A DNA stretch of 64,000 nt from Zootoca vivipara. Its lineage: Eukaryota. The notes beneath the pieces were generated by a model. That model worked only from the letters and a program-made list of their open reading frames with translations, searched no databases and was not told the origin of the DNA. Location of the stretch: positions 71,052,001-71,116,000 of the forward strand of contig NC_083279.1 in the NCBI RefSeq assembly GCF_963506605.1. Reading direction: 5' to 3'. Below, piece by piece: positions 2,213-59,100 of this stretch. A program made the translations under genes and the position numbers. Numbering within the stretch: position 1 is the first letter of the stretch; every line of letters starts with the position of its first letter.

Positions 2213-2562
2213 TATTTATGAAACAGAACAATTCTGGTCATGTGGCACTACTGTTGCCCATGGAACTGTTTGCACAACAGAACTGTTGCTCATGGAATCT
2301 TTTTCCATAAGTACATCAGTTAGAGTACAATTAAAAGTAATTCCAGCTATCACAGTATGTTTTCCAATGCTCTGAGGATAGGGAATATTTACAAATGGGT
2401 CCAACTAATATGGTTTACATGAACAAACTATAATGGGCAGCAGGCAAACACTCACCCTTTAAAAGAAATGACAGGTTCAGGTTTGTCAGCTAAAGGGCTC
2501 CACCTAGTGCTCCACAGAAGTCAGATTATATCAAGTCTCAACTAGGAGAAATTGTATTATTT

Positions 2563-2695
2563 ATCTGAAGAAGTGTGCATGCACACAAAAGCTCATACCA
2601 ATGACAAACTTAGTTGGTCTCTAAGGTGCTGCTGGAAGGTTTTTTTAAAATATTTTGTTTCGACTACATCAGACCAACACGGCTACCTACCTGAA
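2563..2695 (+). mobile_element. Penelope-like element terminal fragment with degenerate hammerhead motif
   Basis: Near-identical to 44859-44985 (ctgaagaagtgtgcatgcacac..aaagctcataccaatgacaaacttagttggtctctaagg...gaccaacacggctacc). Confidence 0.7.
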
Positions 2696-4987
2696 ACTAT
2701 TATTTATTAATTATTGTTAAACTATGGGTAGTGTGTGGACTGGAACAAATATATGAAAGAAACATAGTACACTTTAGCAAATGACAAAAAATAAATTCCA
2801 GGCAAATAACCAATCAAATGTATACTCAAGCAAATTCACACCATTATTTAAACATTTGAGGCGCCCTAGCCTCTTACTCTTGCAGAAATGCACGAGAGGC
2901 ATGTGAGGCCCTGGCTTATTAAAAAAATGACCAGTGCAGTGCACTGGGCGCATCAGCAGCATGCCCAGTTCAAGGTTGATATGGGCATGAGATTTTGTGA
3001 CTAACTACAAGTTAGCAGAAATTTCTCCACTGTCTATAAATGCGAACACTTGGATTGTAGCCACTGTTACTCCTACTCAGAATACAGACTCATCAAAAAT
3101 ACTGTTAATGATTCGCTTAGGTCCATTCATTTCAATTGTTTACTCCAACAATAAATAAGCTAGATACAGCCTTTTATTTCTACCCATACTTCTTTAAAGT
3201 CAAACATAATTCTGCTCTTGCTGAACTGTTCTGGAGGCTGCTTACATCATGAAAATCCTACCTGAGATTTTGAGAAAATTAAGCAATCTCATCAGTTACA
3301 CTTAAAGTCATCTTTTAGGAAGAGGGCCAGCTGAGTGGGAAGAGAGCTTGAAGAACAATTACTGCCCACTTCCACATAAATTCATTTTATGCATGATGCA
3401 AGTTTAAATCGCACACTCGCTAGCACAGAAGCTAAGCTAAAAATAAAAGCAGACAAAGCTAAGACTAAAGAAAGAAGCTAGCTTTCATCTTGCCAGATGA
3501 CGATCCTCTAAAACTGATATTTTTTATTATACAATACAGTATAATCCTACTTTGGAAATTCACCAAATGTATGAAGTATTTTTTAGAAATTATTTTCATC
3601 ACATCTAATCACAGTTGTTTTCAATTAGATGAAAATATGATGCCTAATTTTAGAACAATAAACAAATAAGTAAATACGGTACTGTATTGTAAATCACTCA
3701 TTATTCTTTCAACAGACTCACAAGAGTTGCAATATATACCCCAATACAATATTGATAAATTTAATAGGTTCAGGATACACTGTATATATAATATTTAAAG
3801 TAACAGTTTGGTATATAACTGGGGTGGATCTGGTCAGCAGACTGGATCCGAATCTCCCACATCCACCCCATGGGCCAAGTTTGACAGGTAGACAGTCATT
3901 ATCTAATGGCACATGTCTCATTTTCGCCTGCACAGATGATCCAATTTTCATCAGGGATTGTACAGCACAAACAAACAAAGCTTTCCCTCTAGCCAGCACA
4001 GAACCTTCAATAGAAGGGAAATGTTTGGGGACCCAGTCTCTGTTGAATTAAATTTATTCAAAGAAGAGGGAACTAAGAGAGAGACAATAATAGGTTCCAG
4101 GTTTCCTCCAATCTACAGTATGTCTCACATTGATGGGGCCCTGGTCCTGTCTGAAAGGTACAGAAAGTCTGCATCCCTACTATTATGTATCAGATTGTCA
4201 TGCTGAGTACATCACTGTTCTATGTTTCACCTTTTTTACAGAAAGGGTTATCTCCTTCATCATTCATGGACCAACTCTGACATCTGGGCACCATCACCCA
4301 CCTGTCTATCATCTGACATCATTATGATGTAGGAGACAACTTCAAAGGTGAGCAACATGATGTTGTTTCTAGGACCAAGGTAAAACTCAAACTCCCTTGT
4401 TTTGCTTTTGCCAGCAAGATTAATGTTGTTAATGTAATCTTATTATACTTATTGCACTGAAATGGGTTTTTTATGTTGTTACACTTGCTATTATGTTGTT
4501 GTTTTATTATGCTACTATGGCATTGTTCTTGTGATTGTTGATTTCAAGAAATGTTACTGTTTCCTTTGTTTTTGTGTGGAAGAAGCAGCATATAAATAAA
4601 ATTATGACCGAATGAAAGGGAATCACTGTATCCACTGACCAGCAGTCACATCAAACCCCTTTGAAGTCCATAGGCTGGCATAGTTTAGATCTAATCATCT
4701 GTTGCTGGGGCTTCAAATGTTCTCTCTTGAAGTTTGTCCTCTTCAGTGTTGAAGCACACATGTCCCTTAAGTCTTTTTCCCTTTGTCTTTGTTTGTTTTA
4801 TTACATTTGTAATATTATAGCATCCTTGTATCTTTATATGCGGTACAAAAACAGGCAAAGATGAAGAACTTGTGGCCGTTCAGGCATTGCTGGGCTACAC
4901 AATTCCCATAACCCCTGACCATGCAGGCTGGAGCTAATAGAGTTGGGAGTCCAAGACCACATGGATGACCACAGGATCCTTCCCCAC

Positions 4988-31400: not shown

Positions 31401-34400
31401 AAACTGAACCCTCATCTGCTACATGCAACATTAGTAACTCAATTTAAAACAAAATGTCAGGCACTTTTTCTTATATAACCATAGAATCAAAAGAGTTCAA
31501 AGGGACCCCCGAGCACCATCTAATCCAACCCCCTGCAATGCAGGAATCTTTTGCCCAGCATGGGGCTCGAACCCATGATCCTGAGATTAAGAGTCTCATA
31601 TTCCACCGACAAGACTCATGTTTACAATGTAAACAGCACAGATTGAATAAATGTACCCGCTGTTCTTTGCTTATATTACAATTTTCTGATTACAGTCTGG
31701 ATTGACTTGTGCTACAGCAGACATAACTGAACAAGCAAGCCACGGCATTCTAAAATTCAAGAATCTAGATGCATGTTGATTGTCTTTGCTTGTTTGACAT
31801 TCTTAAATGCAGAACATCAATTCAATGCTTACAATGCAATACAGCTTTGTGCTGAGTTTACTGAAACATGGATTATTAATTATAAACTGTCAGTTTGCAA
31901 AGATCTACTTACGTTGCAATTGTGATGAGCAGCATATAAAGAATTCGGAATACTACATACGAAGCATAACAGACCCAGATGTTATGAACACTGTCCATGA
32001 TATATACGGCAGCAGCAATGCACAGGGAAAACATGGCTAAGGCTATCTCGCCCCAGGTAGCCCAAGATATTTTTATGTGGCCCACAACAAACACAGCCAC
32101 AGCTCCTGTAAGTGCAAAAAACAAATTAATTTAGGGCAGGGTTGCCTAATCTGTGGCCCACACCCACCACTCACCCCCCCCCATTTTTTGTGGTCACCCA
32201 AAAGACAGACCTCTGAAATATGTCATTTTACATATATATAATAATAAATTGGGGGGGGGAAGAGACACCCCTGCCAAACACACACATGCCTCAAATTATC
32301 TTCTAAACAGAAGTAAAATTGGCCACACCCACTTTGATATGTGACTCCCTGGGCACTGTTCACAGGTCATTGTGGCCCTCAGCCCTAAAAAGTTTAACCA
32401 TCCCCATTTCAGGGCTTCTACACTTATATGGAGCAAGCAGGCTTGAGAATTTTGAGGGCGGAGAGAAAACAGGTGGGAGGTTAATGTAGAAATGTTGCCC
32501 AGTACTAGCAGTTACAATCATTACTCAATTGTGGTTGTGCACAAAAGCCTGTGTAAGCATCGGGCTATTGCTCCAACTGCTGTTGCATTGGTCATATTCA
32601 TGTACCAAACCTGGGCATACTTTGCTTGGGTAAAGCTCCTCAGGAGGTTGCTATAAACACTATCATCTCCAGACAGAATTTCAAAACACTAAAATTGCTA
32701 GCAGAATCAAGTGAGTCATCACATGCACACATCATATGAAACTCACTCAACTGTAATTTAAGGGAGTGCCGTTTACGGGAAAGGGTCTCTTGCTTGAAAT
32801 AGGAAAGCATCAGTTTCGGCAGCTGCACAACGCACCTACCCTGTAGGTAAGGTATGTTTAGTCCTTTGGATCCAGTGCTTAACGTAGTCCCATAGCATGT
32901 ATCTTACCTCTTTTAAAAAAATAGTTACAGAGGGAACTTACCCAACAGTGTGGAAACAGCCTCCACACCACCGTTATAGATCTTAGAGGTCTGAGAAGGC
33001 AGCACTTTTTCCCATAGACCTTGAGCATAGTTTATGACTTGGAAGTAACCACATGTTGAGAGCGCCCACCAAACAGACCAACACAGCAGAGGCCGGGATG
33101 AGTAGCACCGAAGGAAGTCCTGCCAGAGCTCTTTGATTACTTTCACAATGTCCACTTTCTGCTCCTGCATAGATGTAAAACACACACAAAATTCAGCTAA
33201 TCTTTCTGTCTGTTACTTGCATGTACAGCAGCACAATAGGAAGAATACAGATCTAAATAGGGCTAAAAATAAAATAAAACTGTCTCCTATTCAAGAAGAA
33301 GCACCACCAGAAAGCAGTGCCCCGGCTATCTTTCCAATAAAAAGATGAACCCATGACACTGAAACTGAAGACCACTAGTTCAGATACATTCATGGGGTTG
33401 GATTAGATGACCCTAGGGATCCCTTCCAACTCTATAATTCTATGATTCTATGGTCCTTTTCTCATCCTGGATTGGGCCCTGCCTGATTATACATGCCACC
33501 ACAATTCTTTTTGATCTCTGAATAATTGTGTTCAAAAATAGCCACTTTGTGCTAGGAAAACTGCATGATGGAATCTGGGTAGAGGGGTGAAAAGGTTGTG
33601 TGGTGCACAGAGACATCATATGAACTGGCCACCCAAAATCTTCAACTGTTATTACGTTGCTACATATACCGTAGTATTAAACAAATATAATATTCCTGTT
33701 TAGAAAACAGTCCACTCCATGTATGGACAAAACAATGGGACAGCAGGATAGTGGTTTGGGGTGGAGAATTAGTCAAAGAAATATGCAATTCTGGGGTGAA
33801 GATGGATAGAGCCAGTTCCTGCTAGCCATACCCCATATTCTCAACATTCAACAAGTAGTAGAAAGTAGGTCATTTAAATAATGGGACAGCAATGGTTGGA
33901 CACATGGAGAATTCTACAAAAACCACTTGGCAAACCCTATGCCCAGAACTTCCAAGGCCCAGGGCTTGCAAAGCTTGCTCAGCCCTGCGCACCGCGACTC
34001 CCAAACACCCTACAATCGGCTGTAACACATGGACTCCTTGCCTATACTCTGTGCAGGAAAACATTTACACTATGGCTGAGGTCAAACAGCCAAAGGTTCA
34101 TAGTTTGCCAGTTGTTTTTAACAAGGGAGATGGACATTTATATGCTTGATCCCAACTGCCCATGACCAAGTTGCTGTAGTAGATGACGCATTTGCACTCT
34201 GCCTTAGTTCCTTTCCAATAAATAAAAACAGCCACAGTCCCCACGGGATTGCTATGACTACGATCAAGATAAGAATTATAATACTCTTTGTATATTCAGC
34301 TATGGGGAATTATTACAGCTGAACTAAAAGGTGCAGGATGCTAAACTTTCACCACCAGCAAAACCTGCACAGACACCCTTCAAGCAATTTAGGGGGAAGG

Positions 34401-37400: not shown

Positions 37401-40400
37401 AAAAGTAATTTCTAGATTTGTTTGCACAATTGCAGAAGTTTGCTTTCTGCTGAAGTGTCAGGCTTCACTATGTCCTGCAAACTCCTTTAGAAGCATCTCC
37501 ACACAAGCGTCTCACTTTTTCTGACCCAGTCTTCACTTCATTGGTTCTTATCTCTGGACCTAGTTTACCCTGACAATTGGCCAAAACTTCTCTATAGGCT
37601 CTCCTAAGAAGCTTGTGGTAACATTTGTACTTGCAAAGAATGTCTAGAGTTTAAAAGTATCGTATTCTTAAGATGGATAGTAGCCCACCTTCAGAAACAC
37701 ACAAGCATAAGCTGTTCTTGGAGCTACCACCTGCCCTCCCCAGCAACAATAGATTCCCAAAAGAATCTCCTTTCTTCTCTCAGGCCTTTTAAGATCTTGT
37801 TTTTAAGTTCCTATGGAATGGTTAGTGGTTTTAGCATAAGCATTTGATGGTTCCAGTTTCTGCACTCTGTACGGTATTTGGCTGTGCTTGATTTTTGTAT
37901 TTGGCTTTTATGCTGGCTTGTTTTATGCGATTATAGATTTTTATTGTAATACTTTATTTTTCTCCCTTTGAATACCTAGAAGATTCATTTAACAAGGCAT
38001 CTCATAAACAAGAATAATAAATAGGAAGTTAATAAAACTAGCATATTTGATTGGCCTGAACTTGTACTTGTTTCAGCAGGCAATAGGACTCGACTGCCAG
38101 AGGCATGCTGAAGATCACATCCCCAGAATTTAAAGTGATCAGACACCTGAAAACCCAATGAACTGCCCTGACATGCCACAAGCAACAGACAATGTAATGG
38201 TCAATTAACCCAACAGAGATTTTCTGTGCAATGAGAGATCTGCACCTTCCATTCCCCTGGAAACAGCATTATTGCTTACCTGTTGCACTGCTGGATGCTC
38301 ATCTCTATTTAAAGGGATCTCCGATTCAACATCTTCCCACCCAGGAACCCTCTTTAAGGCAGGATCTACAACCTTCGTTTCCTTACTGACCTGGGTGCTT
38401 GACTGTCGATGGTGAAAGAAAAGGCTTTTCTGTGGCATGGGCAGAAACCAGGCCATGGCGAAGGCAACGGACACAGCAGTGAGAGAGATCACATTCAAAT
38501 TGAACAGAGGCCAGTCAAATACAGACACCAGGATTTGTCCAGAAACAGAGCCCACTGTAAAACCCACAAGCGCAGCACTCCGACAGTAGCTTGTGACTTT
38601 TTGATACAACGTTAGGTCCACAACGCTATAGATGTAGGAATAATAGGCAATTTCCGTGGCAGTCACCAGTCCATAAAAGAACTCCAGGAACTGAATAGCC
38701 AGCAGTCCTTCTGCATAAAGCAGCATAAACCATGTCACTATAAGGCTTAGTCCTTGTAGGAGGATGACAGGCTTGTAGCGGAGATAGTCTGTTGCCAGGA
38801 AGACAGGAAAGAGCAGCACCAAATAGGAGTAAGTCCATACTGGATAAATTTCATTGAAGACCTAAATGAAGAAGAAAAAGATATGAACATTTGTTAACAG
38901 AAAATTCATATTCTAAGAGGTGTAACTTACAGCTCATTCAAATACAAGCTTTTGCGTAACATCAAACTGTGCAAGGGGTAGTTGCCAAGCAAATTCTCTC
39001 TAGAGAGGCTATTATACAGCCAGAGTCCCTTGGAAAGCATGGAGCATCTGATGGCATTTGGTAGTCATTTCTAGAGAGGGGAAATGGAGAATGAGAAGAG
39101 TATGCTCGCTGGTCCACACTGCAACCTCACTCCATCACCCCAGTGTGAGTTTAGAAGAAACAACCTCATGAAGAACAGCTATTTCCCCCTCATGTTTCCC
39201 TATTCATGGTTTTAGGATCGAGTCAGAGATATCCTGCTCTGTTAAGGAAAGGATGGGCAACCTGTGGCCCTTCAGAACTTGTTGTTGAACTCCCACTCGT
39301 CTAGGCATCCCCAAACTTCGGTCCTCCAGATGTTTTGGACTACAATTCCCATCATCCCTGACCATTGGTCCTGTTAGCTAGGGATCATGGGAGTTGTAGC
39401 CCAAAACATCTGAAGGGCCGCAGTTTGGGGATGCCTGCACTAGTCCATAGCTGCCAAGTCTCCCGTTTTTCGCGGGAAACCCCCGTATTTTAAACCGTTT
39501 CCCGCCAGCAGCCCAAGTTGAAAAAAATCCCATAAATCCTCCAGATTTCCTACCTGCCAGGGAGGTCCTGGCGCCACCCGATTTCCTGTGTTCATACATG
39601 GGTAGCGCAGCTCCGGAAGTCGCTTCTACGCATGCCTGGACATACATAGAAGCGACTTCCGGTGCCACTCCGTCCATGCCTGGGCACCGAAAATCGGGTA
39701 GAGCAGCACCGGATGTTGCTTCTACGCATGTCCAGACCTGCATTTTTCGGCGGGAGACTTGACAGCTATGCACTAGTCCCAGGCTGCATGGCCAATATTC
39801 ATGGCTGATAGGAGTTGGCAGTTCAGCTACATGTAGAGAGTCAGAGGTTCCCCATCCCTGTATTCTGGCTCCACCCCACTGACCTTTACCCCACTGCAAG
39901 GATTGATTTTTATGTGTTCACCGCAGAAAAATAAACTTTTGCTGGCTAGGGAGGGAGAAGAGAAGGTAAAATAGGTTAAAAAGAGTGGTCCAAAATTAAA
40001 GTTTCAGAAGCAGTGCCTTACTAGGGTTGGCTGGCATGACACTTTATTAATCTCAGGCTCGGACACTGCAGTAGTGGTACAGGCTGATACGGTATTTCCA
40101 GCTTGAAATGTACCAAATACATATTGAAACAGAGTGCATGTGGGGTTAGTTGGAAAAGGCAATAGAAGATGACCCTGTAATGTTTACAAGTCCATTTGCA
40201 CGAAAAAGTTATGTGTTGTGTTGTTTTTGTGTTACTTCTCATTATTTTTAAGCCTTTGCAAGAAAGACCAAGATGTATAAAAAGCAGCAGTGATCTAAGT
40301 GGATAAAAACTTGTAGGACTGGATATTTCAGAACCTTATCACAAAATCTCCAGAAAATTTTGCTGTCATCTGCAACAGTCAGAATAAAATCATTTGCAAG

Positions 40401-42793
40401 GACTTACAGATTGCTGAAGGTTGAGACAGTCTGCTTCATTGTCATTACAGTATTCATAAAAGGTAAAAAAGAATCCAGTTAAAAAACTGATAGAGGTAGG
40501 AGAACTATGGAATTTGTTTCATGATTTCTACTTAGCAAGCATCCAAGTGATAGCTGTCCTACGCATTACAACCTGTCTCCAAGGGCAAAATTTTAAAAGT
40601 ATGGTTTCTCATAAATAAGTCCTATTCACATCAATTGGATTACTCCTTGGAAAATATGTTAATGGTGCAGTCTTCAGCAAAGGTCTACCTGTTCATTATG
40701 GCACAAGGTAACTCCTGGCATTACTGAAATTGGGCCTTTAACTGTTTCCTGGACGGATTTCCTCCCTACTAAAGGTGTTCAGCCCTTTAATGACTAGTTT
40801 CCTAAATCCAAATGGCATTATTTTCCTGATCTGTTTAACTTTGTTTTATTAGCTTTCCTTCTGCAAGAAACAGAAATGAATTTATTTATTTTTAAGAAAA
40901 TGAAGATCAAGCATGTGCACTCTCTCCAAAACGCAGACAATAGAAAACTGAAGCAGGGAGCAGGTGCCAAAAGCGTCCACAGGTTTAGAAGAGGTTGAAG
41001 GCCAGCAGCACACCAACTGTAGATTCTCTCAACAACTTTGAGTCAACCAGCTCACAGCTGCTGATTGCAGCCTATGCTGATGATGATGGACAACAAAGAT
41101 AAACTCCCCAAGCCCTCAACCAAGGGTCAATAATGCTTAGGTAGTCCATACAGGATGGCCTAGGCCTGCAGCTTGGATGAATAGCTGCAGGCCAAGGCTT
41201 GAATGAGAAAACACTAAAATGCAACAGGCAGCAACTCAAGTCTCCATAATAACTGAGTGGATGATGGCAATTCCAAATAACCGTTACTGTAGACGCAAGT
41301 TTGATCTAGGTGAGGGATGGGCAGAAGATAGACCAAGATCTTCTGGTAGGATTAATATCACTCATTTGCACTACCACCATGCAAATCATAGAATCATAAA
41401 AGTGTAGAGCTGGAAGGGACCACAAGGGCCATCTATTCCAACCGCCTGCAAAGCAGAAATCTTTTGCCCAAGGTATGGCTTGAACCCATGACCCTGAGAT
41501 TAAGAGTTTCATGCTCTACCAACTGAACTACAAATATATGGTTAAAAATTATGAAATGGGTCTCCAAATACATGTTTGGGTTAAAAGTGGGTTCTGGGTC
41601 TAAAAAGTTTGAAACGTATGGCTCTATATGATTCCACAGTAGATCAACAATTATTTTTGAATCCAAGTCTGGGATAGCTGAGTTGGTAGAGTGTGAGACT
41701 CTTAATCTCAGGGTCATGGGCTCAAGCCCCACTTTGTGCAAAAAAAATCCTACATTGCAGGGAATTGACCTAGAGGACTCTTGGTGCTCTCTTCTAATTC
41801 TACAATTCTATGAATCTAAGTTGTCTAACAAAGGACTCTCTCCTCCCATTATACTTCTGAAATTACGGAAGGAGAGGTGATCACATGCGGAAAGGACTTT
41901 TCTTAAATACTGTAAGGATTATGAGCTATATTGATTTCCAGCACTCAGAATAAATGTGTGGGCTCAGGATTCTTTAATTCAAGCTGCATGCCTTTTGCAC
42001 AGGGATGCAAGATTCCAGTAAAAATATAAGTAAACCCCACATGCCCACCCTGATCTATCAATCTCTGCATACAATGCAGTATACCAGTGACAGCAGGGAC
42101 CCCATCGCAGGCTAGTGACGTAAGTTTGGCAAGTGCAAGTCAGAAGATCCACCTGCTGCTGCTCAGGACAGTGACAAACTTTCCCGCCGCGACATCCTCT
42201 TTCCCTCCCGCTTCCACCAAGGGGATCACGCGCTTATGAATCTACCAGTAATTCTGACTTCCCCTATAGCTCCAGCAGCCAGCCATTCATCAATACCGAG
42301 TCCCGGGGAGCTTTAGCATTCCAAACCAAGAGATGCCGGAGGGGCTTCAGCCTACCTGGAATTCGGCGCTAGCGAAGGGTCCTCTGCACATGTTCGAGAG
42401 CCCTCTCTCCTTAGCATGACCGACGGCTGAGGTGGAAACACAAAGCCCCGGGCTACTAGCACTGAACTTTGGGAGTAAAGCTCTACAGAGCTCGGTGGGG
42501 CTTACTTCCGAGGAGACACGTGCCCCGTCCCCCCGCAGACGAATCCCCTCTTCGAAACGCTACGGACTAAAAATGCCGCCGCCCCGGAATACCTGAGTCT
42601 CGGTGAGGTTCTTGTCCGGTCCCAACAGGTAAGGCGTGAGGAAAGGTTCCGACGGCCGCAAGTTGGCGAAGAAGCCGTAGCCGCACAGCACCGCCGTGGG
42701 CAAAGCCCAGCCGAAGGCGCGCGGAGCCCGCCCCACGCGGCGAGGCAACAACACCCGGGACCGGAGCCCGTCCAGAACACCCTGCGCTTCCAT
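28296..42793 (-). CDS. SLC19A2: SLC19A2 thiamine transporter 1, complete CDS join(42593-42793,38280-38861,32942-33164,31913-32105,29038-29179,28296-28421), 488 aa
   Basis: SLC19 motifs [65 protein letters not shown]; six exons; located between CCDC181 and F5; 1467 nt total. Confidence 0.97.
29038..29179 (-). CDS. SLC19A2: SLC19A2 exon 5
   Basis: gtgaag|[24 protein letters not shown]...DIFTQ|gtaagg; 142 nt. Confidence 0.96.
30567..30845 (+). mobile_element. tRNA-derived SINE apparently interrupted by an old hAT-like MITE (~30686-30790)
   Basis: tagctcaatggtaga head, ctcagtataagacag tail, MITE-like sequence in between. Confidence 0.55.
31480..31610 (-). mobile_element. tRNA-Lys(CTT)-derived SINE with CR1-type tail
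   Basis: Reverse strand gagactcttaatctcagg..tgggttcgagcccc head plus (attctatg) tail. Confidence 0.8.
31913..32105 (-). CDS. SLC19A2: SLC19A2 exon 4
   Basis: tacag|AVAVFVVG...LLITIAT|gtaagt; 193 nt. Confidence 0.96.
32942..33164 (-). CDS. SLC19A2: SLC19A2 exon 3
   Basis: tgcag|EQKVDIV...VSTLLG|gtaagt; 223 nt. Confidence 0.96.
33393..33452 (+). mobile_element. CR1/SINE 3' tail fragment
   Basis: ggggttggattagatgacc..cccttccaactctataattctatgattctatg. Confidence 0.7.
34754..34776. repeat. (CA)n microsatellite
   Basis: Direct reading. Confidence 0.9.
38280..38861 (-). CDS. SLC19A2: SLC19A2 exon 2
   Basis: tttag|[17 protein letters not shown]...EHPAVQQ|gtaagc. Confidence 0.96.
39302..39437. 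mobile_element. hAT MITE family A (~136 bp palindromic)
   Basis: TIR (c/t)aggcatccccaaact; 8-bp TSD cactcgtc/cactagtc. Confidence 0.88.
39446..39770. mobile_element. hAT MITE family B (325 bp)
   Basis: TIR catagctgccaagtctcccg / cgggagacttgacagctatg; perfect TSD cactagtc (39438-39445, 39771-39778). Confidence 0.9.
41385..41530 (-). mobile_element. tRNA-Lys-derived SINE with CR1 tail (left member of inverted pair)
   Basis: Reverse strand tagttcagttggtagagcatgaaactcttaatctcagggtcatgggttcaagcc...ttccagctctac..atgattctatga. Confidence 0.85.
41669..41820 (+). mobile_element. tRNA-Lys-derived SINE with CR1 tail (right member of inverted pair)
   Basis: gggatagctgagttggtagagtgtgagactcttaatctcagggtcatgggctcaagccccac...ctacaattctatga. 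Confidence 0.85.
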
Positions 42794-43210: not shown

Positions 43211-43680
43211 ACCTTGCCGACAAAGGTCCGTATAGTTAAAGCTATGGTTTTCCCAGTCGTGATGTATGGAAGTGAGAGCTGGACCATAAAGAAGGCTGAT
43301 CGCCAAAGAATGGATGCTTTTGAATTATGGTGCTGGAGGAGACTCTTGAGAGTCTCATGGACTGCAAGATCAAACCTATCCATTCTGAAGGAAATCAGCC
43401 CTGAGTGCTCACTGGAAGGACAGATCCTGAAGCTGAGGCTCCAATACTTTGGCCACCTCATGAGAATAGAAGACTCCCTGGAAAAGAACCTGATATTGGG
43501 AAAGATTGAGAGCACAAGGAGAAGGGAATGACAGTGGTTGGACAGTGTTCTCGAAGCTACCAACATGAGTTTGACCAAACTGCGGTAGGCAGTGGAAGAC
43601 AGGAGTGCCTGGTGTGCTTTGGTCCATGGGGTCACGAAGAGTCGGACATGACTAAACAACTAAACAACAACAACAACAAC
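43211..43680 (+). mobile_element. RTE-BovB LINE, 5'-truncated
   Basis: Encodes TLPTKVRIVKAMVFPVVMYGSESWTIKKAD...[11 protein letters not shown]; ends gaagagtcggacatgact..(caa)n. Confidence 0.93.
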
Positions 43681-44556: not shown

Positions 44557-44756
44557 TAGGTTGTATTCCACTAAGTCCTACTCAGAGTAGACCCTAATGA
44601 ACCCTAATGATGGGCACCTCACTCAGTCACCTTGGGCCAGTCACTGTCTCTCAGCCTAACCTACCTCACAGGGTTATTGTGAGATTAAAATGGAGAGGGG
44701 ACAACAAAGTACACCACCTTTTGCTTCTTTGAAGATAAAGTGGTATATAACTGATT

Positions 44757-44985
44757 AAAAATTCCTTCCAGTAGCACCTTAGAGACCAACAAAGTTTCTC
44801 ATGGGTATGAGCTTTCGTGTGCACGCACACTTCATTTCACACTTGTGAAAGTGTGGTGTCTGAAGAAGTGTGCATGCACATGAAAGTTCATACCAATGAC
44901 AAACTTAGTTGGTCTCTAAGATGCTACTGGAAGGAATTTTTTTATTTTGTTTCGACTACATCAGACCAACACGGCTACCTACTTG
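44757..44985. mobile_element. Penelope-like element remnant with inverted terminal duplication and hammerhead motif
   Basis: 44761-44833 is the reverse complement of ~44865-44937; 44859-44985 matches 2563-2695. Confidence 0.75.
44854..44895 (+). ncRNA. Minimal type-I hammerhead ribozyme-like motif (Penelope-associated, degenerate)
   Basis: UGGUGU-CUGAAGA-A-GUGUGC/AU/GCACAU-GAAA-GU-UC-AUACCA: stem I (UGGUGU:AUACCA), catalytic boxes CUGANGA and GAAA, UH site. Confidence 0.6.
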
Positions 44986-45730
44986 TAACTGATAAAAAAT
45001 GGAATGTCCATTAACTTCAGTGGGTCTACTCTGAGTACAACTAGGTTATCTTATCAAGCATATTGTTGTCCTATGTTTCCTTTAAAGTATCTCTCTCACA
45101 CACACAATTAGATAAAAAGTTGTGCCTTAATTAAGCATCTGACCTTGTGGCTGCAGTTGACATGAATTTTAGGTGATGCAATTGTTATCTGAACTTTCAA
45201 AAAACAAAGAGGCTCTAAATAATATGGTGTCACAACTACTACCAGTTCTCATGACTGTTTTGCCTATCATTTTGTAGTTTATGACCCATTGATCTGACAC
45301 ATTATTTTTGAATCTGTGTTGCCACAATTGATCCAGATCTAGAAATAGCAGGAGGAATCCTTGAGAATTAGTGTACTAGAAGGTTACTAGCCACAAGGCT
45401 TCCGTTCTGTACACTCAACAGCATCCTTTCTCTTTCCTTGCTGAACTTCAACTGAACCTCTGTTATTGAGTTTCAGGAGTTTTACCCTGATCCAAGGTCA
45501 GATCTAAAAATAGTCTTTGCTCTATATTAGGGGAAATGTCCACAATATTTAGAATAGGCCCAGGTCTTTTACATAGAGGGACCACATCAATATTGACAAA
45601 CAGTACATTCTTCCTGAGAGTCTCTCAAATGAATGTACACACACACCCTGGACTCTCAGGGGCTTTAAAAGGAGTGGAAAGGGCTCAGGAAACAGGGCTG
45701 CTTCTGTGTCTTGCCTAGATTAGTCTAGAA

Positions 45731-45867
45731 CAGGCACCCCCCAAACTGCGGCCCTCCAGATGTTTTGGCCTACAAGTTCCATGATCCCTTGCTAACAGGA
45801 CCAGTGGTTGGGGAAGATGGGAATTGTAGTCCAAAACATCTGGAGGGCCGAAGTTTGGGGATGCCTG
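45731..45867. mobile_element. hAT MITE family A
   Basis: Perfect 8-bp TSD gtctagaa; TIR caggca..cccaaact. Confidence 0.9.
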
Positions 45868-46773
45868 GTCTAGAACAAGACTTCAGTCTAGACTACATCA
45901 TGTAAGGAGTTTCTCCCCTCTGAAATTTTGGGGAGCCTGAATCTTCATCAACCTAATAACACAACCTGGATCCCTCTCTCAGTTGAATTTTGCATGAAGT
46001 ACAGAGTGAAGTCACCTCAGAACTTGTCTATTTCACCAGAGTAAACCAGTTTCAGTTATTGCTGAAGGCGCTCTCAAAGCACGTTGTAGCAAGCATCATG
46101 CACGAGACTGTTTCTGCCTAATGACTAAGCATGGTCTTTTGAAATTTCAGGTGTAGTCACCCAGGAATCATCTTATTCCACATAAGATCAGCTGAATGTA
46201 TTGCAAAAGAGAGGGCCAACAGACAGAAAGGGAAAATAATATTTCCTGGTTATAGTGTACCTGTTAAAGAGCTCCTGATTTTATTAAGATGTGAGCTAAC
46301 GGGGGACACTATTAGAAAGTTTAAAATGCTGGCCTGAGTTAAGCTACATAAATTCCAAACAGAATAATCAATGATGCAATATTGCATTAATTATAAAGTA
46401 CTAAAATTATTTGTTTTAAATTATCATGCAAATATTGAGCTACCTGGATGTCAGCAACTGAATACTGTGGGACTTCCAAGTAAACATGAATAGAATAGTG
46501 TTGTTGGTCTCAAACTCAATTTCCCACCTGTGAAATGAGCCTATTTTTAGCCAAATCATCCTTGCTATTATGAGGGATTAAAGAAAAGATATGAAAAGCT
46601 TGCTTTGTTTTCATTAGCATATTTTATGGGAGTGAAGACATTGCAGTGAAATCATTTTGCCAAGGTGTGCTCAAGGACCACACATACAACAAAGCAGAGC
46701 TGTAGCTCCCTTCTTTACTTTTGCAGGTTTCTCTTCCTTGCATCCTAGGATTTCCCTCTGCTATGTTAACCTG

Positions 46774-47290
46774 GAGAAAAGCAATGACAAACCTAGACAG
46801 CATCTTAAAAAGCAGAGACATCACCTTGCCAACAAAGGTCCGTATAGTTAAAGCTATGGTTTTCCCTCTAGTGATGTATGGAAGTGAGAGCTGGACCATA
46901 AAGAAGGCTGATTGCCGAAAAATTGATGCTTTTGAATTATGGTGCTGGAGGAGAATCTTGAGAGTCCCATGGACTGCAAGAAGATCAAATCTACCCATTC
47001 TTAAGGAAATCAGCCCCGAGTGCTCACTGGAAGGACAGATCCTGAAGCTGAGGCTCCAATACTTTGGCCACCACATGAGAAGAGAAGACTCCTTGGAAAA
47101 GACCCTGATGTTGGGAAAGATGGAGGGCACAAGGAGAAGGGGACGACAGAGGATGAGATGGCTGGACAGTGTTCTCGAAGCTACCAACATGAGTTTGACT
47201 AAACTGTGGGGGGCAGTGAAAGACAGGAGTGCCTGGCATGCTATGGTCTATGGGGTCATGAAGAGTCGGACACGACTAAACAACAACAAA
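46774..47290 (+). mobile_element. RTE-BovB LINE, 5'-truncated, with TSD
   Basis: Uninterrupted RT C-terminal ORF (46721-47302); 11-bp TSD atgttaacctg at 46763-46773 and 47291-47301. Confidence 0.95.
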
Positions 47291-47888: not shown

Positions 47889-48024
47889 CAGGCATGGCCA
47901 AACTTGGCCCTCCAGAGGTTTTGGGACTACAACTCCCATCATCCCTAGCTAACAGAACCAGTGGTCAGGGATGATGGGAATTGTAGTCCCAAATCATCTG
48001 GTGGGCCAAGTTTGGCCATGCCTG
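47889..48024. mobile_element. hAT MITE family A variant
   Basis: TIR caggcatggccaaacttggccc; perfect TSD gtttaacc. Confidence 0.9.
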
Positions 48025-50003
48025 GTTTAACCCTTTTCCCCACCACCATTTTCACTATAGAAATTGCTCCTCACTTCTAAATTGATGTTAGCCCATGTGG
48101 GGGCTCTCCCATTCCTCAACTAGAACTAATAGCAGCTTTGCGATAATTGATTTTAGTTGGGAAAAAACAGTGGGGAATGGCGTTAAATGCCTCCAATAGC
48201 ACCAGTTGATTTTATACCTTTAAAAAATAAGAAAATGTCTCCTACATCATATATAGTTTGGGCCTTTGTTCCACAACAGGAAAGAATGCAACAACATTTG
48301 CTATTCATAGAAGGATGGGGAATCTGTGCCCCCTCCAGATTGTGCTGGACTCCAAATCCTATCAAGCAGCAAGTATGGTCAGTGTTCAGAGATGATGGAA
48401 TCTGAAGTTAAGTTCCTGCACCCAGGCTGCAAACTTTACTCATTGCACCACACTGGCTGAGCCATGATTTCAGTGTTTTTGAACTAATTCCTTTCTAGCA
48501 TTTCCCCTCATACAGTGTCAGTTTTGTTATACAGAAATAAGAATACAACGCATTTTCTTTGCCTCTTAGTAGCAGTCCAAAGGTCTTGCGGATCAGTGAT
48601 TTTTAAAGATGTTGGAATAAAAGGGAGCTGCAACCAAGTGTGCTTTTAACACATTAGATATGCATTGTTTTGCATTTCATTCAGAAAATACAAATAACAG
48701 ATCCTGAAAAAGTGTTAAGCACCTTGCAGAAAGATTTACCACCCGCTTATGAATTTCAGTGTTAATCCACCTCCAAAGTCATGGAAGGAAGACCTGTCCA
48801 TAAATAGTTAGCAAAGTACATGACTGTGCATTTGGAGACATACCTTACATAACCATTTCTACTCATCTTAAATTATTCTCTAATATGCGGTGTACAGTAC
48901 GTTCTTTTAAATGTTTTCCCCACATACAATGAAGTCAATAATTGTTTGAAGCACAAACATCTAGCTGATACGCAGAAAATCACAGAACTCTACAATTCTA
49001 TGATTTCCTACTTATATTTGCGAACTACCCTTTTATTAGGCAAGTTTGGAACTCATCTGAGATAATGTAGAACCAATTGCGGTGTCTACTTAGATCAGTT
49101 ATACTGACAAATGTTGTGAATGTTCATTTATCAGCAGCAACAGCTTTTGTGAAGAATCAGAACAGTGGCTCCTGTGGCTGTAGGGGAGCTCCTGAGGTCT
49201 TGCCCAGGTGCCCCCTCTGAGCTGTCTTCTTGGTCATGAGGGTGCTTACCTTTTCTCTCCTGAAGGAGGAAGTTGAAAGAGCAACGCTATTATTCCCCAC
49301 TTCTCTTTCAGCTCTATGCCCTTTCCAAGGCTGAAATTAATTCTGCTGGATCCAACTTCTATTCAGGTCCCATAGTAAGGGAAATACGTGCACTATCTTT
49401 CTGTCTCTCATGGAGGTGGGATGTGATCCGCAGAGAAGAAATGAAAAGTGGGTGGTGTTGATAGCACGGTCTCAAAAATCCAAATGTGCTTACAGGCCTA
49501 CAAAAGTTGGTGACCCCTGAATTAGAACAAGACCAACTAACCTCACCTGAAGGAATGGCTCCTCAGAATCCTTTGGTAAACAAAGCTCATGTGTCTGCTG
49601 ACAGCTCACTGATCAGAGACTCCTGAGTCCTGACCCCACTCCTCATTCCTGCTCTTACTATCTGGTTGAAGCATGCTATTCTGAGCATGGAAGAGGGAAG
49701 GTGGGAAGTGCAGAAGAAGGCAAAGGCAATGATTGTAATACACATTAAGGTATCTATTCACAGTGATAATGGAAAATACAATTGCTTGTTTATCTTATGC
49801 ATTCACAGTACTTAAATAGGTACGAATGTCTTTTAATTGAATTTTCAAAGCTATTCCAATCCACAGCTTAAAGTGCTTTGGATACGCACACCCCTAATCA
49901 CTCTAAAAGAGTTTTTTTGTTCTGGTTTCCCCTTTTAAAACATCTGGTATCAGCAAGCTTAAAGGTTGTGGGGCTTTCAGTATGATAGTCTTCTGTTCAG
50001 CCC

Positions 50004-50150: not shown

Positions 50151-53100
50151 CTGAAAACAAGCATAACAAAATGAGTGGACAAAAGTGCAGAATGAATGCA
50201 CAATGAGTAGACAAAAGGTTGGACTAACTCATATTCCCACAATGGCACATAATATCTAGGTTCATATAAACCTGTGCAGTCCCTTATGTGTCAGGCCATT
50301 GGGCCATCCTTTGAGTCCACAACAAACACTGTACCAATTATGATTCTCTATGTTCTCAGGCAGAGATCTTCCCAAGCTCCAGTCCCCACAGTGGGGTGGG
50401 GGGATCCGCTACACATTACAATTTGGACCCAAGGCCTCTAGCTTTTGATCTTTACAATAAAACCACTGTTCAGAGATGTAGCTCTAGTATTCTATTCCAT
50501 GTTACACAAGCCATATCTAATTATCACTGGTCCCTATATTGCTTGTAAGAACTCTAAATCCATAGTGAAGCAAAATGATTTGGCAGTATAGAGTTACTGA
50601 GTCAAACCTGGCAAATCAGGACTGTTAAAGGACTTCAGTAGTAGGGGGGAGTGGCCAACATTTTTAATGCTTAGCATAAACGAAAATAATAAATAGGGAG
50701 GGGGAGGAAAAATTGGTACCTTTCCCATGGAAGTTGAATCATTCATGTAAGGCTTCCACACTGAACCATCATCGCTGTAGAGGATGGAAAATGTCTTCAC
50801 ATACATTTCACTGTACATTGATTTAGCTCCTTGTGTTATGATGCCTGTTATCTTCTTAGGTTGAAGGAGATCAATCTGCAGCCATTGTTGGTTGTTGTTG
50901 GACTGTAAAATTAATGAGAACAATAATAACACTGAGTTATGCAAGTTCACTGGTGAATGTGCAATACATGCAAATCTTTAACTGAGTTCTACAGAAGTGC
51001 ACAGGGTTACTGAACACTGGGCGAAGACTCTAAAATAGGCAAGTGTTTAGGATCCTTCCATGTATTCTTTATTTAATTACATGTATTAGTTGACCTACAA
51101 TCAAAATAATTTGTGAAGTGGAAGTAAATCAAAGAAAATAAAACATAGCTGTTAAAAGAATTTAAAGCTAAATAACCAACACTTCATTCAAGCACAATTC
51201 CATATATGTCTGCTCAGAAGTAAGTCCTATTAAGCTCAGTATTCCAGGGTTAAATGTGTATGCTAATCAAGGATATCATCTGCAGGCATTACAGCTGCTG
51301 ATCCTGTGTACGCTGGAGTAGATCCAATGACTTCAAGCTACAGGTATTATTTTTTTAACGGAGTTCTTTCACTAGTGCCAGCGCTAACTTCTTTCCACTT
51401 TTTTTGGTTGTTTTCTTTATATGCTATTTTAATATGATGGTTAGCTTGTATGCCACCCTGATTATTTCATTTTTACTCTACTTTTACATTATTAAAAAAT
51501 AAACAACTGCAGAAGCTTCGGTTTTGCAGCGTTCATTGTTACCTTTGCTTGCCAGGCATTCATCTTCCCTTTGAGATTGAGGCGGGCAAGAGATGGCTCC
51601 CATGAACCCAACCAAGTCTTCTTATAAGAAGAGGCTGTAATTTGCACATTCTTGATAGCCACACTTTCCATTCCCAATGGCATAAAGCAATCTATCATAA
51701 AAAATATGGACACATCCTGGTTAGATCTCCTAAGCAACAGTATGGTTTACAGCAAAGATGTACACAAAGAAAGGCCTCAGCTGCAGGGTCCAGGTCTTAC
51801 CTTCTGTATCACAACCCAGGAGTTCCATACGAAGAGTCGGCCTGTTATAGAACTTGGTTGGATACACCCTAATATACCTAGCAACAACAGGAGGATCAAT
51901 GAGGTTTTCTTTTATGCCATGGGCATCTGAATTGCCTTCAAAAACCTAATGGAAACAAAAGAGCTCTGTAAGTAACTCTGCGGTATTTGTTAATAGATGC
52001 ACTTCCAGTGAAGTATCTCATGTATATTTTCTTACATGGATTCTGCCCATTTCTATACAATTGCTCGGGCTAAAAAAGATGGACTATAATAGCCCTGAAC
52101 CAGTTTTTATTCCAATTAACCATGCATAATAAATGGTGGCTCTCTAGGTGGGGATGCGTTTCAGAAGATGCACCCAGCCAGTTCAGTGGGGATTGGATGC
52201 ATAGCTGCCAAGTTTTCGCTTTTCTCGCGAGGAAGCCTATTCAGCATAAGGGAAAATCCCTGTAAAAAAGGGATAACTTGGCAGCTATGATTGGATGAGA
52301 ATTGCAATATGAATGGCGATACACATGTTAATGGACATTTATATCCTCATTGGCTACATGTGAAAAAAGTTACTTTCATGTGGTCATATATGTTTAGTAC
52401 GAGCATATAGTATTCATATAATTTTAGCATTTATATTCTCATATTTATCTATTATTACGTTTACATTCCACCTTTCCTTCCAGGAGCTCAAGGTGGCATA
52501 CCTGGTTCTCTGTCTCACTGTGATTTTTAAATTTTTATTTATTTCTATACTGCTACGTTATTTTTAAAAAATCAATGTGGTTTACAGTATATGCAATAAG
52601 ACATGTAAAAATTTAAAATCAGAGACCATCAACTAGCTTTTTCTTAATTACCTGCATAAGACTAGCAGCACAGAAAAGTTTTCAACAGGCATTTCAAAAG
52701 GTTGAAACTAAAGGTGCCTGCTGAATCCCTATTGGTAGAGCATTCCACAGGACTAGGCTGACCATACTAAAGGATCTATTTCAGGCATCCCCAGACTTCG
52801 GCACTCCAGATGTTTTGGACTACAATTCCCATCTTCCCTAACCACTGGTCCTGATAGCTAGGGATCATGGGAGTTGTAGGCCCAAACATCTGGAGGGCCG
52901 CAGTTTGGGGATGCCTGCTATTTCATGTTGATGTCAAATGAGCCTTGCCATCTCAAGTGATGCTCCTGAAGATGATCTCAGTGATCAAGCTGGGATATTA
53001 GGGTTTAGGCAATCCCTATGGTACTCTAGACCTAAATTAAAGCAAGGACCTTGAAGCTGACTCCGTAGTAGATGCACAGCCAGTGCAGATATTTTAACAA

Positions 53101-56100: not shown

Positions 56101-59100
56101 TTATAAATATTGTAAATAAAAACATTTAAACAAACACATTATATTCAGTATGTTATATTGCATGCCTACTAGTTAGTATATTACCCTTTTGTGCTGTCAA
56201 TTTTGGTACCATGAATGATAATTTATGTCTACCACCATGGGGAAAAATGGAAGAGTGTTAATGTTGGGCCACTACAGAACGTGGGTGTTCATTAAAGCAG
56301 TAGTCTATTGTGTAGTGGTTCCATTGCTAGAGGCTAGAATTTAAAGTATATCACTTGCAAAGAGGCAAAACATATTCAACTTAACGACTTAAATTCCTTC
56401 ACTTTGAAATTTAACTTACCTATGTAGTTCGAAGCACTGATCTGTGAGTCTTTTATAATGCCACTTGCTAGACCCATGGGCAGCTTGCATCCTATTGAAA
56501 GGGACCAAACATGTTAACCCTCCCTAAATTTTGGTGTTAGGCAGAACAATCCTATACCCTAGGTTACACCTGGGGGTGAGATGGAGATGCACCATTGCAA
56601 CATCTTGTGTGCACTTAGTCTGGGATGGGAAGGAAAAAATACACAGCCAGACTTTTTTTTAAAAAAAGCATAAAAATGGCAGACATGATCCCTGTTGAAG
56701 TTCAAGCTACGTGCAGCTTTGCAAGTGAGCAATTAGTGATTTGACTACAGGCTAGGGAGACAGAGCACGGGAGAAATTTGCCTGGAGATAAGAGGTCCTT
56801 GTAACAGCTTGGTGATTGGCTGAGGTCTCTCATATAGGCAGCATGACCTATGACATTGTTTGGCTAGTTAGGAGTATTCTGGAGTGCTTGGAGAGTGATG
56901 AAGTTTGTGTCTGTATATAGTAACTTGTATATAGCTTGTGAGTTAACTGCCGTATTTACCATAATAAACTACAAAATCAAGTTACTAGTTGTCAGCTTTG
57001 TTCCTGATTGTTGTCCTGACTGAGCAGTCTAGATCGTTGCCTAGGAAAAGCTGCACTACTCTGCTAAGTTGTGCATCATTGAAGAAGTTCAGAGGTGAAG
57101 AGACTAGTTCTAGCAGCATGCAAAAGGACTTCAGAAAGTGATACACAGGCTTTGGAGTTTTAACAATCCCAGCATCCCTGGAAACTCTGCCAGTACCCAC
57201 CAATCAGGGCCTGTCCCAGTGACAATGGGTGGCATCCAACAAAGTTTTCGTCAGAATAGACTCACTGAAATTAATAGGCCTGAGTAAGCCATCTTGATTA
57301 ATTTCAGTGCATCTACTCTGAGCTGCACTAGTTGGACCAGTACTGTATTGGATACAAAACAATGCTCAATTTACTTGCAATAGCTTGAAGTCCCACTGCA
57401 CACACACTGCTTCCCAACCATGCAATGGCACTTATGTGCCTTGTTTTGTGAGGTTCAATATGGTTAAACTCTGTTACCTGTATCTATAACAGTAAAGGAG
57501 GCTTGCATTCCTGCTTCCTGATATTCACCGACTTCTGTTTTTAAAAGCCACGTGCCAGCTCCTGACGGTTTCATTTCAACAGTACCAAATGAACCTTAAA
57601 AGCAGAAAGAAAATACATGCACATTTTTGTTAAACATGTCTAAACTGCAAATGTGGTCAGAAGATGAGTAGAGCAGTATTATATTAAACCAAAGCCTACT
57701 CTGTTTTTTATGATTCTGCACTAACGGGAATTAGATCAGGTGCAAGGTTCCTGAACTTTCACAGACATCCAGTTGTTTTTGTTTTTTTTTTTGTTGTTGT
57801 TGCTCATGGTTAAATCATATTCAGCTTTAGACTGCCAGCTATGTATTCTCGTGCTATATTTTCACTGCATACGTTGGGATTTCTGATAAAAATCAATAAA
57901 GCAGAGCAGATCTGTAGACAATAACATTTTCTCTTTGCATACTAACTTGTATTCAACCCAGTTTGCAAAGAGAAATGCTTCGCCCGCTGTCAAGGTGATC
58001 GCAGGTGATTGACAGGTGGTTGGTGCCTGCTCACCTGTCAAAGTGGCCCATGGTGATGGGGAATATTAGGATCCAGACTACCAGGTGGATCCAGTTCGTC
58101 ACCCCTCTTCTTATATAACATAAAGGAGTTAGCCAGTGCATCTCAGAAGGCTAATGGAAGCAAAGTGGATTCTATTGCAATAATTTCTCAACCATTTACC
58201 ATGGAAATTAGGGGTTGTTTATATGCTGACATGGACTGGGTCATTTGCCATTCTTTTTTAAACAATCATATATTTTTATTCACATTGATATAACTACTTA
58301 AGAATTCTTCATTCCAACATCATAGAGAAGAGCATTTAATTTTCTGACAACAATATATGGATCCATCTGATTATATTTACCAGGAAGAAGAGGGTAGACA
58401 CCAAGCTGATGATCTTCCATTCCCTGTTCTGTGAATGTCTGACCATGGAAATTAACAACATGAATGTCTTTTGGCCCACCCATGTTTAGCAAATGCCAGT
58501 GGACCTTCTCATCCTTAAACATCCGCAACCCCTGAAGGTGGTATGAAACCCCATTAATAGCTGAAAGAAAAAGAACATGTGATCAGAGATTAAGAAACAG
58601 CACACATATCCTTCTGTGGTTGTTGTTGTTTTTAAACGTTTTGATGCATAACTGCAATTTCTATAACTACTTACGGTAGTTCTACTTACAGTCTATAACT
58701 ACTTAGTTCTACTTGCAATTTCTATAACTTCCTAGTAACTACTTGCAGTCCCATGGACTGCAAGAAGATAAAACCTATCCATTCTTAAGGAAATCAGCCC
58801 CGAGTGCTCACTGGAAGGACAGATCCTAAAGCTGAGGCTCCAATACTTTGGCCACCTCGTGAGAAGAGAAGACTCCCTGGAAAAGACTCTGATGTTGGGA
58901 AAGATTGAGGGCACTAGGAGAAGGGGACGACAGAGGACGAGATGGCTGGACAGTGTTCTCGAAGCTACGAACATGAGTTTGACCAAGCTGTGGGAGGCAG
59001 TGGAAGAAAGGAGTGCCTGGCGTGCTCTGGTCCATGGGGTCATGAAGAGTCGGACATGACTAAACAACTAAACAACAACAACTTAGTTCTTCAAAGCCTT

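What the first reader, a model, noticed from the sequence alone, without database searches (positions are those of the whole stretch)
44757..44985. Minimal hammerhead ribozyme inside a Penelope-like remnant with inverted terminal duplication
Seen: three copies of one motif (2565, 44860, and inverted at 44761-44833) give the consensus UGGU(G/A)U-CUGAAGA-A-GUGUGC-AU-GCACAC-GAAA-GC-UC-AUACCA. This has a 6-bp stem I closing around the UC site, both catalytic boxes, a palindromic stem II, and a one-base-pair stem III on a self-complementary AGCU. Established: Penelope-like retroelements carry minimal type-I hammerheads that can fold as dimers and often show inverted terminal copies; an extra A between A9 and G10.1 occurs in a natural viroid hammerhead (ChCMVd). 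Inference: these are decayed copies of an active self-cleaving RNA. The 44860 copy has CG>TG and GC>GT, and the inverted copy keeps GAAAGCTC but lacks CUGA. The copy sits ~2 kb upstream of the SLC19A2 promoter.
Basis: partly seen in the sequence, partly recalled or inferred. Interest (0 to 1): 0.7.

Follow-up and report, generated by a model that had tools for sequence, protein, structure and literature searches.

The report
Decayed Penelope stub, known mini-hammerhead
This is a short, mutated copy of one end of a very common Penelope-type jumping gene that carries an already described tiny self-cutting RNA motif; this copy is likely inactive, but thousands of sister copies start at the motif's first letter with an extra G, which likely marks the capped, uncut start of the element's RNA.

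Summary
The motif is real and belongs to a known kind. 44757-44990 is a palindromic stub (inverted arm, direct arm, one-sided tail, target-site duplication) of an endonuclease-positive, Neptune-type Penelope-like element. Its core 27-mer occurs 23,213 times in the genome. Intact ~3-kb elements (RT + GIY-YIG) carry the motif in both terminal repeats: the minimal hammerhead of Cervera and de la Pena 2014. Corrections: the family's stem I is 4 bp (GUAU/AUAC), not 6; none of the three window copies is intact (the 2565 copy has lost G12); the 44860 copy is predicted to be buried in an 86-bp hairpin; no RNA read ties it to its flanks; nearness to SLC19A2 is unremarkable. The one fresh point is family-wide. 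Copy 5' ends peak at the first G of stem I, 31 nt behind a TATA-like box, and are preceded by an extra G (4,116 G against 2,125 A+C genome-wide). They do not peak at the cleavage site. This likely marks sense, capped, uncleaved RNA as template. I found it in no paper searched. The scan has noted the same pattern in other genomes.

The parts
44748..44761 (+). Left target-site duplication (14 nt, one mismatch to the right copy); its A-run overlaps the T-run end of the inverted arm
   Evidence: Sequence read directly
44757..44833 (-). Inverted, tail-less arm: pLTR piece from just inside the core (CUGA missing) to the T-run; keeps stem II and GAAAGCUC
   Evidence: blastn to family references; inverted repeat I4
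44834..44854 (.). Rearranged junction between the arms, with a small palindrome; not continuous element sequence
44855..44855 (+). Extra G in front of the element's first base; inferred copy of the RNA cap
   Evidence: Masters have T here; 4,116 genomic copies have G, 2,125 have A or C
44856..44893 (+). Minimal type-I hammerhead, decayed: stem I 5' strand 44856-59 (A>G at 44858), CUGAAGA 44860-66, extra A 44867, palindromic stem II 44868-81 (C11.1>U at 44881), G12 44882, AGUU instead of AGCU (44887), predicted cut after 44889, stem I 3' strand 44890-93
44894..44990 (+). Rest of the pLTR and the one-sided ~45-50-nt tail, ending about 10 nt before the ORF's ATG in intact tandem elements
44986..44999 (+). 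Right target-site duplication; first 5 nt overlap the element's 3' end
2562..2699 (+). Second, independent stub of the same subfamily, with a 10-nt duplication (2555-2564 / 2698-2707); G12>A at 2587, only 3 nt of stem I
42592..42793 (-). SLC19A2 first coding exon (context only; boundaries read from the sequence)
   Evidence: exon 2 best matches thiamine transporter 1

Best explanation
This is a decayed, likely inactive stub of a Neptune-type Penelope-like retroelement whose terminal repeat carries the known minimal hammerhead, likely made when the element's reverse transcriptase copied only the capped front ~135 nt of its own RNA. Shown: the family, its intact ORF, the hammerhead in both repeats, the 5'-end peak, the extra G, the TATA spacing, the damage in this copy. 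Inferred steps: (1) transcription starts in the pLTR at the G of GUAU, 31 nt behind a TA(T/C)ATAAG box, so the hammerhead is nt 1-38 of the RNA; (2) the GIY-YIG nuclease cuts an AT-rich target, and RT starts inside the RNA at the tail end or at the U-run (as shown in vitro for the anole element, PMC11167929); (3) RT runs to the RNA's 5' end and copies the cap as an extra G; (4) a second, inverted copy primed on the other strand or by fold-back is joined through a rearranged junction; (5) the insertion then decays neutrally, first at the CpG that spans C11.1-G12. In the family the hammerhead is kept by selection and likely cuts only as a dimer or with the element's protein, on RNA that is not being used as template (removal of the capped leader, or release of unit-length RNA). 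Odds: identity of the element and motif 0.97; this copy without function 0.88; capped, uncleaved sense template 0.75.
For: Intact tandem element: ORF of 925 codons stop to stop, with RVT_1 (E 3.8e-12) and GIY-YIG (E 6e-5); motif on the sense strand at L101:5569 and 8605, 3,036 nt apart. Core boxes invariant and stems covarying in 16 sequences from three or more families: 24 cells with two-sided changes, 0 of 500 shuffles as high, score 0.362 against <= 0.147 for slid controls. Among promoter-bearing subfamilies N7 is the position that varies. 5' ends of 275 anchored copies: 21 at -4 (21 per nt), 0.85-1.0 per nt upstream of -10, 3 over +29..+31 (cut site = +30). In the 121 copies chosen only by a downstream anchor: 12 at -4, 1 at +30. 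Base before a -4 end is G in 12 of 21, against 29 of 133 at other ends. Genome-wide T 15,958, G 4,116, A+C 2,125. 42 of 43 G-type copies are junctions, not point mutants; of 12 with a resolved duplication, 6 have a G not in the target and 6 share the G with the target. The box-to-start spacing is kept in 53 of 54 promoter-bearing copies despite indels in the spacer (read). This copy: RNA predicted as one long hairpin, -134.4 kcal/mol, z -17; unique flanks have depth 0-1.5 in three RNA runs. CpG decay: G12>A in 25 and C11.1>U in 14 of 180 copies. An extra G marks capping at full-length L1 junctions (PMC11702581, one passage).
Against: No transcript start was seen directly: the RNA runs show no pile-up of read starts at -4, and the ORF is nearly silent. 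One base of cDNA fold-back on stem I would also add a G, and one junction of that kind was seen (L267). Half of the resolved extra Gs (6 of 12) are shared with the target. Samples come only from the first 33 Mb of contig C1; set 1 (154 copies) was partly chosen by a core-containing pattern and holds tandem duplicates; 2 of the 21 ends at -4 begin TTAT. Rows in the covariation test are related, the descriptor fixed the boxes of the other families' rows, and those older families were not shown to carry a PLE ORF (tblastn hit only L184). The 44860 copy keeps all catalytic-core bases, so some activity in a short transcript is not excluded.
Confidence: 0.85

Rival explanations
1. The 44860 copy is a working ribozyme that acts on SLC19A2 upstream or F5 read-through transcripts.
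For: All catalytic-core bases are present and a 6-bp stem I can form in this copy; it lies 1,964 nt from the SLC19A2 ATG, downstream of F5.
Against: With 39,104 anchor matches in 1.44 Gb, about one per 37 kb, a copy within 2 kb of some promoter is expected often. G10.1-C11.1 and the AGCU palindrome are both mutated. Any RNA through the locus is predicted to fold as an 86-bp hairpin. On the strand of both genes only the CUGA-less arm is sense. No read joins the unique flanks in the ~6% read of each of three runs.
Confidence: 0.04
2. The ~135-nt hammerhead units are a separate non-autonomous element (SINE or retrozyme) bounded by ribozyme cleavage and copied from circular RNA.
For: Very many short copies with their own duplications; one tandem array of 598-nt units with a hammerhead in each; model in PMC4209133 and bioRxiv 10.64898/2026.07.22.740005.
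Against: Ends do not map to the cut site (3 of 275 within 1 nt of it). Stubs lack the TATA box. They track the subfamilies of the long elements, and 5' ends run continuously into the ORF.
Confidence: 0.05
3. The peak at -4 and the extra G come from DNA structure, not from a cap: the cDNA 3' end pairs back on stem I's complement, gains a base and is released. The true start would be the TCA(G/C)T initiator-like site at -7 or further upstream.
For: Stem I complementarity predicts G as the first added base; one long fold-back junction exists (L267); a TATA box plus TCACT initiator at similar spacing was proposed for a rotifer PLE (PMC3846280); T is 44% of the bases before the extra G (1,839 TGGTRT, against 4,116).
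Against: Fold-back predicts GG for the ATACCC subfamily; seen 0 of 6. No CG was seen before the start in 43 copies, so CpG decay can explain part of the T excess. Only 5 of 275 ends lie at -7. End density drops about fourfold upstream of the peak, as expected at an RNA end. -31 is the usual TATA distance (own knowledge).
Confidence: 0.15

Closest known systems
[quoted passage not shown]
   Same: CUGANGA and GAAA boxes, extra base between A9 and G10.1, G10.1-C11.1 pair, palindromic 15.2-16.2, 4-5 bp helix I, two copies ~3 kb apart around the ORF, many dispersed single and opposite-strand copies; reported there in reptiles.
   Different: Stem II here is a perfect 14-nt palindrome (5 bp as monomer; a 14-bp duplex is predicted between two RNAs). 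The paper's model of cleavage and circular templates is not supported by copy ends here.
PAc, Poseidon element of Anolis carolinensis (Frangieh et al. 2024, PMC11167929; parts 1-2 of 4 read)
   Same: Lizard EN+ PLE, hammerhead in the pLTR, two internal RT start sites that define a one-sided tail, AT-rich targets, unprocessed RNA as dominant template, no RNA-seq ends at the cut site.
   Different: Here the linker motif is of Neptune type; the ribozyme and both 3' ends lie upstream of the ATG instead of overlapping the ORF; the parts read do not mention a cap-derived G or a transcription start at stem I.
Neptune-clade EN+ PLEs (Craig et al. 2021, PMC8557442; 12 passages read)
   Same: Single RT + C-terminal GIY-YIG ORF, CX2-5CxxC linker, CCHH motif, partial tandems, inverted 5'-truncated partner, tail at one end.
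   Different: Tail is ~45-50 nt here against 30-40 bp; placement by tree not tested.
Extra G at 5' junctions of full-length LINE-1 insertions (PMC11702581; one passage read)
   Same: Non-templated G at the junction where cDNA reaches the capped RNA end.
   Different: Here it marks ~135-nt stubs, because RT starts just downstream of the RNA's 5' end.

Membership tests
Minimal type-I hammerhead of PLE pLTRs (family level) | CUGANGA and GAAA boxes, A15.1-U16.1, H17 | tested here: met
   All 11 core positions intact in 133 of 180 copies; N7 varies among subfamilies
Minimal type-I hammerhead of PLE pLTRs (family level) | Extra base after A9, G10.1-C11.1 pair, palindromic 15.2-16.2 | tested here: met
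Minimal type-I hammerhead of PLE pLTRs (family level) | Helix I of 4-5 bp and helix II with compensatory changes | tested here: met
   7 of 11 pairs with two-sided changes across 16 related sequences; almost no covariation inside the main family (2 copies)
Minimal type-I hammerhead of PLE pLTRs (family level) | Located in both pLTRs around the ORF, sense strand | tested here: met
   L101 and L102
Minimal type-I hammerhead of PLE pLTRs (family level) | Self-cleavage after H17, as dimer or with protein | not testable with these tools
   No read starts or ends piled at the site in three RNA runs; such libraries need not show them
Intact minimal hammerhead (the three window copies) | All core bases plus G10.1-C11.1 and the stem III palindrome | tested here: not met
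   44860: C11.1>U and C16.2>U; 2565: G12>A; inverted arm: no CUGA
Rfam hammerhead families | Match to a curated model | tested here: not met
   0 of 28 matches at E <= 10 are hammerheads
EN+ Penelope-like element | One ORF with RT and C-terminal GIY-YIG | tested here: met
   (sister subfamily; 83% DNA identity to the window's subfamily over the 3' 617 nt); GIY-YIG also in the window's subfamily, E 2e-4, just under Pfam's cut-off
EN+ Penelope-like element | Partial tandem pLTRs, inverted truncated partner, one-sided tail, target-site duplication | tested here: met
Neptune clade | CX2-5CxxC linker and CCHH motif | tested here: met
   CX4CxxC before, and CxxC..H..H within, the GIY-YIG domain, read; motif definitions from PMC8557442
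Neptune clade | Placement in the RT tree (against Nematis, which shares a linker) | not tested
   No named reference sequences on hand
Non-LTR retrozyme | Tandem units, each with a complete type-I hammerhead | tested here: not met
   This locus is a head-to-head palindrome; only a distant 598-nt array fits

The most novel reading that the evidence does not exclude
The element's capped RNA begins exactly at the first base of hammerhead stem I, and thousands of genomic stubs, this one included, are cap run-off copies. That would show that a Penelope-like element copies sense, capped, uncleaved RNA in vivo, and that the minimal hammerhead sits at the cap as a decapping or leader-removal switch rather than as the maker of the template's ends.
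Probability: 0.7. Interest if true: 0.55.

Novelty: new member of a known kind. Interest (0 to 1): 0.36.

Why it matters
The locus itself is ordinary. The family-wide end pattern bears on two open points in Penelope biology: whether the template is sense or antisense RNA (left open in PMC3846280) and whether hammerhead cleavage makes the template (proposed in PMC4209133, found unnecessary in vitro in PMC11167929). A cap signature at stem I favours sense, uncut RNA and gives an exact start site to test. The genome also holds young, intact elements for such tests.

Tried and rejected
Rfam scan: no hammerhead model matched; the miRNA-family hits over 44784-44912 are far below gathering score and reflect the palindrome. 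Six-bp stem I as a family trait: rejected. Putative start at the TCA(G/C)T site (-7): my first guess, dropped when single-base mapping peaked at -4. Peak of ends at the cleavage site: looked for, not found. A UGG-bearing subfamily as source of the 1,839 TGGTRT copies: rejected; none of 20 loci continues into the element's upstream sequence. Arms from different subfamilies as a test of two templates: 0 of 98 inverted pairs mix A- and B-type; a few differ at one diagnostic base; inconclusive (some pairs counted twice). PLE ORF remnants in the window: none. Run search: no RNA holder listed on record; three raw RNA runs of the same species label were laid, about 6% of each. Lunse et al. (PMC5785218) is not held; known only through a review's passages. 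Literature searches for a cap or extra G in PLEs listed no such paper; subscription papers are not searched, and I opened no supplements (those of PMC4209133 and PMC11167929 may show this motif or these ends). The ChCMVd origin of the extra-A precedent is recalled; PMC4209133 only cites the 2001 paper.

Full report
Observation. The three copies are there: direct copies with C3 at 2565 and 44860 and an inverted arm at 44757-44833. The arms at 44757-44842 and 44856-44941 are 87% complementary. The insertion is framed by a 14-nt duplication with one mismatch, which overlaps the element's 3' end on the right and the T-run of the inverted arm on the left. The locus lies 1,964 nt upstream of the SLC19A2 ATG and downstream of F5. 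The host is a vertebrate with a 1.44-Gb genome, probably a lizard (my recall of its repeats, not a call). Rfam has no matching hammerhead model (0 of 28 matches).

What it belongs to. A 27-mer of the motif occurs 23,213 times in the genome and a downstream 20-mer 39,104 times; reversed controls give 0. Longer copies extend upstream into a GIY-YIG coding end. A young sister subfamily has intact tandem elements: an ORF of 925 codons stop to stop with RVT_1 and GIY-YIG, and the motif on the sense strand 3,036 nt apart on either side. The protein has a CX4CxxC linker and a CCHH motif, which PMC8557442 gives for Neptune-type elements. No tree was built. The window's subfamily is 83% identical to the young one over its last 617 nt. 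So the finding is a 5'-truncated end of an endonuclease-positive Penelope-like element with the usual inverted partner and one-sided tail.

The hammerhead. In promoter-bearing copies the motif reads GUAU, CUGANGA, extra A, a 14-nt palindromic stem II, GAAAGCUC, AUAC. Stem I is therefore 4 bp. N7 is the position that differs between subfamilies. Other families in the genome keep the boxes and change stems I and II in a compensatory way: 24 cells with two-sided changes, 0 of 500 shuffles as high, score 0.362 against at most 0.147 for slid controls. The rows are related, the search pattern fixed the boxes, and those families were not tied to an ORF. This is the min-HHR of PMC4209133, which reports it in reptiles, no activity as a monomer and low activity as a dimer. 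The anole element's hammerhead cut only with protein and was not needed for insertion in vitro (PMC11167929).

State of the window copies. None is intact. 44860 has C11.1>U, C16.2>U and a G.U in stem I; 2565 has G12>A and three bases of stem I; the inverted arm lacks CUGA. These are the family's commonest lesions: G12>A in 25 and C11.1>U in 14 of 180 copies, both at one CpG. RNA through 44740-45000 is predicted to be one hairpin of -134.4 kcal/mol, which would bury the core. In about 6% of each of three RNA runs the unique flanks have depth 0-1.5, and the reads on the element run on into other loci. At one anchor match per 37 kb, nearness to a promoter needs no explanation.

Where copies begin. 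I mapped 5' ends of 275 copies anchored downstream of the cut site (154 from C1:0-2.9 Mb, partly chosen by a core pattern and with some tandem duplicates, and 121 chosen only by a downstream anchor; 90 of the 100 places listed were fetched, all on C1). The single highest position is -4, the first G of stem I: 21 copies, against 0.85-1.0 per base upstream of -10, 3.1-3.5 per base from +3 to +22, and 3 copies over +29..+31 around the cut site. In the unbiased set: 12 at -4, 1 at +30. The base before a -4 end is G in 12 of 21, against 29 of 133 elsewhere. Genome-wide the base before GTATCTGANGAAGTGTGC is T (the element's own) in 15,958, G in 4,116 and A or C in 2,125. 42 of 43 inspected G copies and 24 of 30 A/C copies are junctions. 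Of 12 G copies with a resolved duplication, 3 have exactly one extra G, 3 have longer extras ending in G, and 6 share the G with the target. One palindrome has the extra G on both arms (L263). A TA(T/C)ATAAG box starts 31 nt upstream, with the same spacing in 53 of 54 promoter-bearing copies despite indels between (read).

Mechanism. Inferred: the pLTR promoter starts a capped RNA at the G of stem I; RT starts internally about 135 or 85 nt downstream, as for the anole element, and runs off the capped end, copying the cap as a G, as at full-length L1 junctions (PMC11702581). Starting in the downstream repeat gives long copies; starting in the first repeat gives stubs like this one. The template was uncleaved, since the first 34 nt would otherwise be lost. 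The hammerhead is likely kept for a step outside templating, such as removing the capped leader or releasing unit-length RNA, as a dimer or with the protein. Against this: no start site was seen directly. RNA reads cover mainly the 135-nt stub inside host transcripts, the ORF is nearly silent, and no starts or ends pile up at -4 or at the cut site. One base of fold-back on stem I would also give a G; longer fold-back is not supported (0 of 6 GG in the subfamily that predicts it) but one such junction exists.

Known and new. Element, motif and insertion shape are known. The cap reading answers a question left open in PMC3846280 (sense or antisense template) and agrees with PMC11167929. My searches listed no paper that reports it; supplements and subscription papers were not seen. 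I reached this reading before looking at the scan's notes (note); those notes report the same pattern in several other genomes. They are unchecked AI notes and I do not count them as support.

Papers seen: PMC4209133 and PMC11167929, parts 1-2 of 4 each; bioRxiv 10.64898/2026.07.22.740005, part 1 of 5 and one passage; PMC8557442, PMC3846280, PMC6765202, passages; PMC11702581, one passage; PMC2377424, abstract and outline; PMC5785218, nothing.

Verdict. A new member of a known kind. This copy is likely a dead stub. Interest 0.36, carried by the family-wide cap signature (probability 0.7, interest 0.55 if true).

Noticed in passing
L061:3326-5742 (G000:C1, about 2,777.3-2,779.7 kb): Four tandem 598-nt units of an internally deleted element (ORF start fused to the GIY-YIG end plus pLTR), each with an intact hammerhead: a retrozyme-like array made directly from this PLE.
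   Followed up: partly
L181-L183, L186-L189, L199, L211, L218 (positions 1501-1531): Older hammerhead families with the same boxes but other stems I and II; probably other PLE families, no ORF link shown.
   Followed up: partly
L101:5577-5590; window 44868-44881: Stem II is a perfect 14-nt palindrome; two RNAs are predicted to pair through it (-28 kcal/mol) more strongly than through AGCU (-14.9), a possible second dimer contact.
   Followed up: partly
L190-L219 (positions 1501-1532): An RTE/BovB-like repeat (name recalled) has a CUGAUGA...GAAA look-alike in coding sequence, hundreds of copies; stem I does not fall in register, probably chance.
   Followed up: no
L101, L102, L104, L078-L100: Many near-identical long copies with open ORFs, including a head-to-head pair of full-length elements (L102): the family is young and probably still mobile.
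   Followed up: partly
98 inverted pairs across fetched loci: The two arms never mix the A- and B-type subfamilies; tail-less arms more often reach the start, tailed arms more often stop inside the hammerhead.
   Followed up: partly
window 39303-39438, 45733-45868, 47890-48025, 52783-52918; 1922-2218; 16595-16778, 21637-21819, 61239-61422: Palindromic MITE-like repeats; the first group gives the sub-threshold mir-5408 Rfam hits.
   Followed up: no
window 43211-43670, 46750-47290, 58747-59046: 3' pieces of an RTE/BovB-like LINE (name recalled) on both sides of the finding.
   Followed up: no
window 41420-41530, 41675-41743, 31507-31616: tRNA-derived SINE-like repeats that give weak Rfam tRNA hits.
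   Followed up: no
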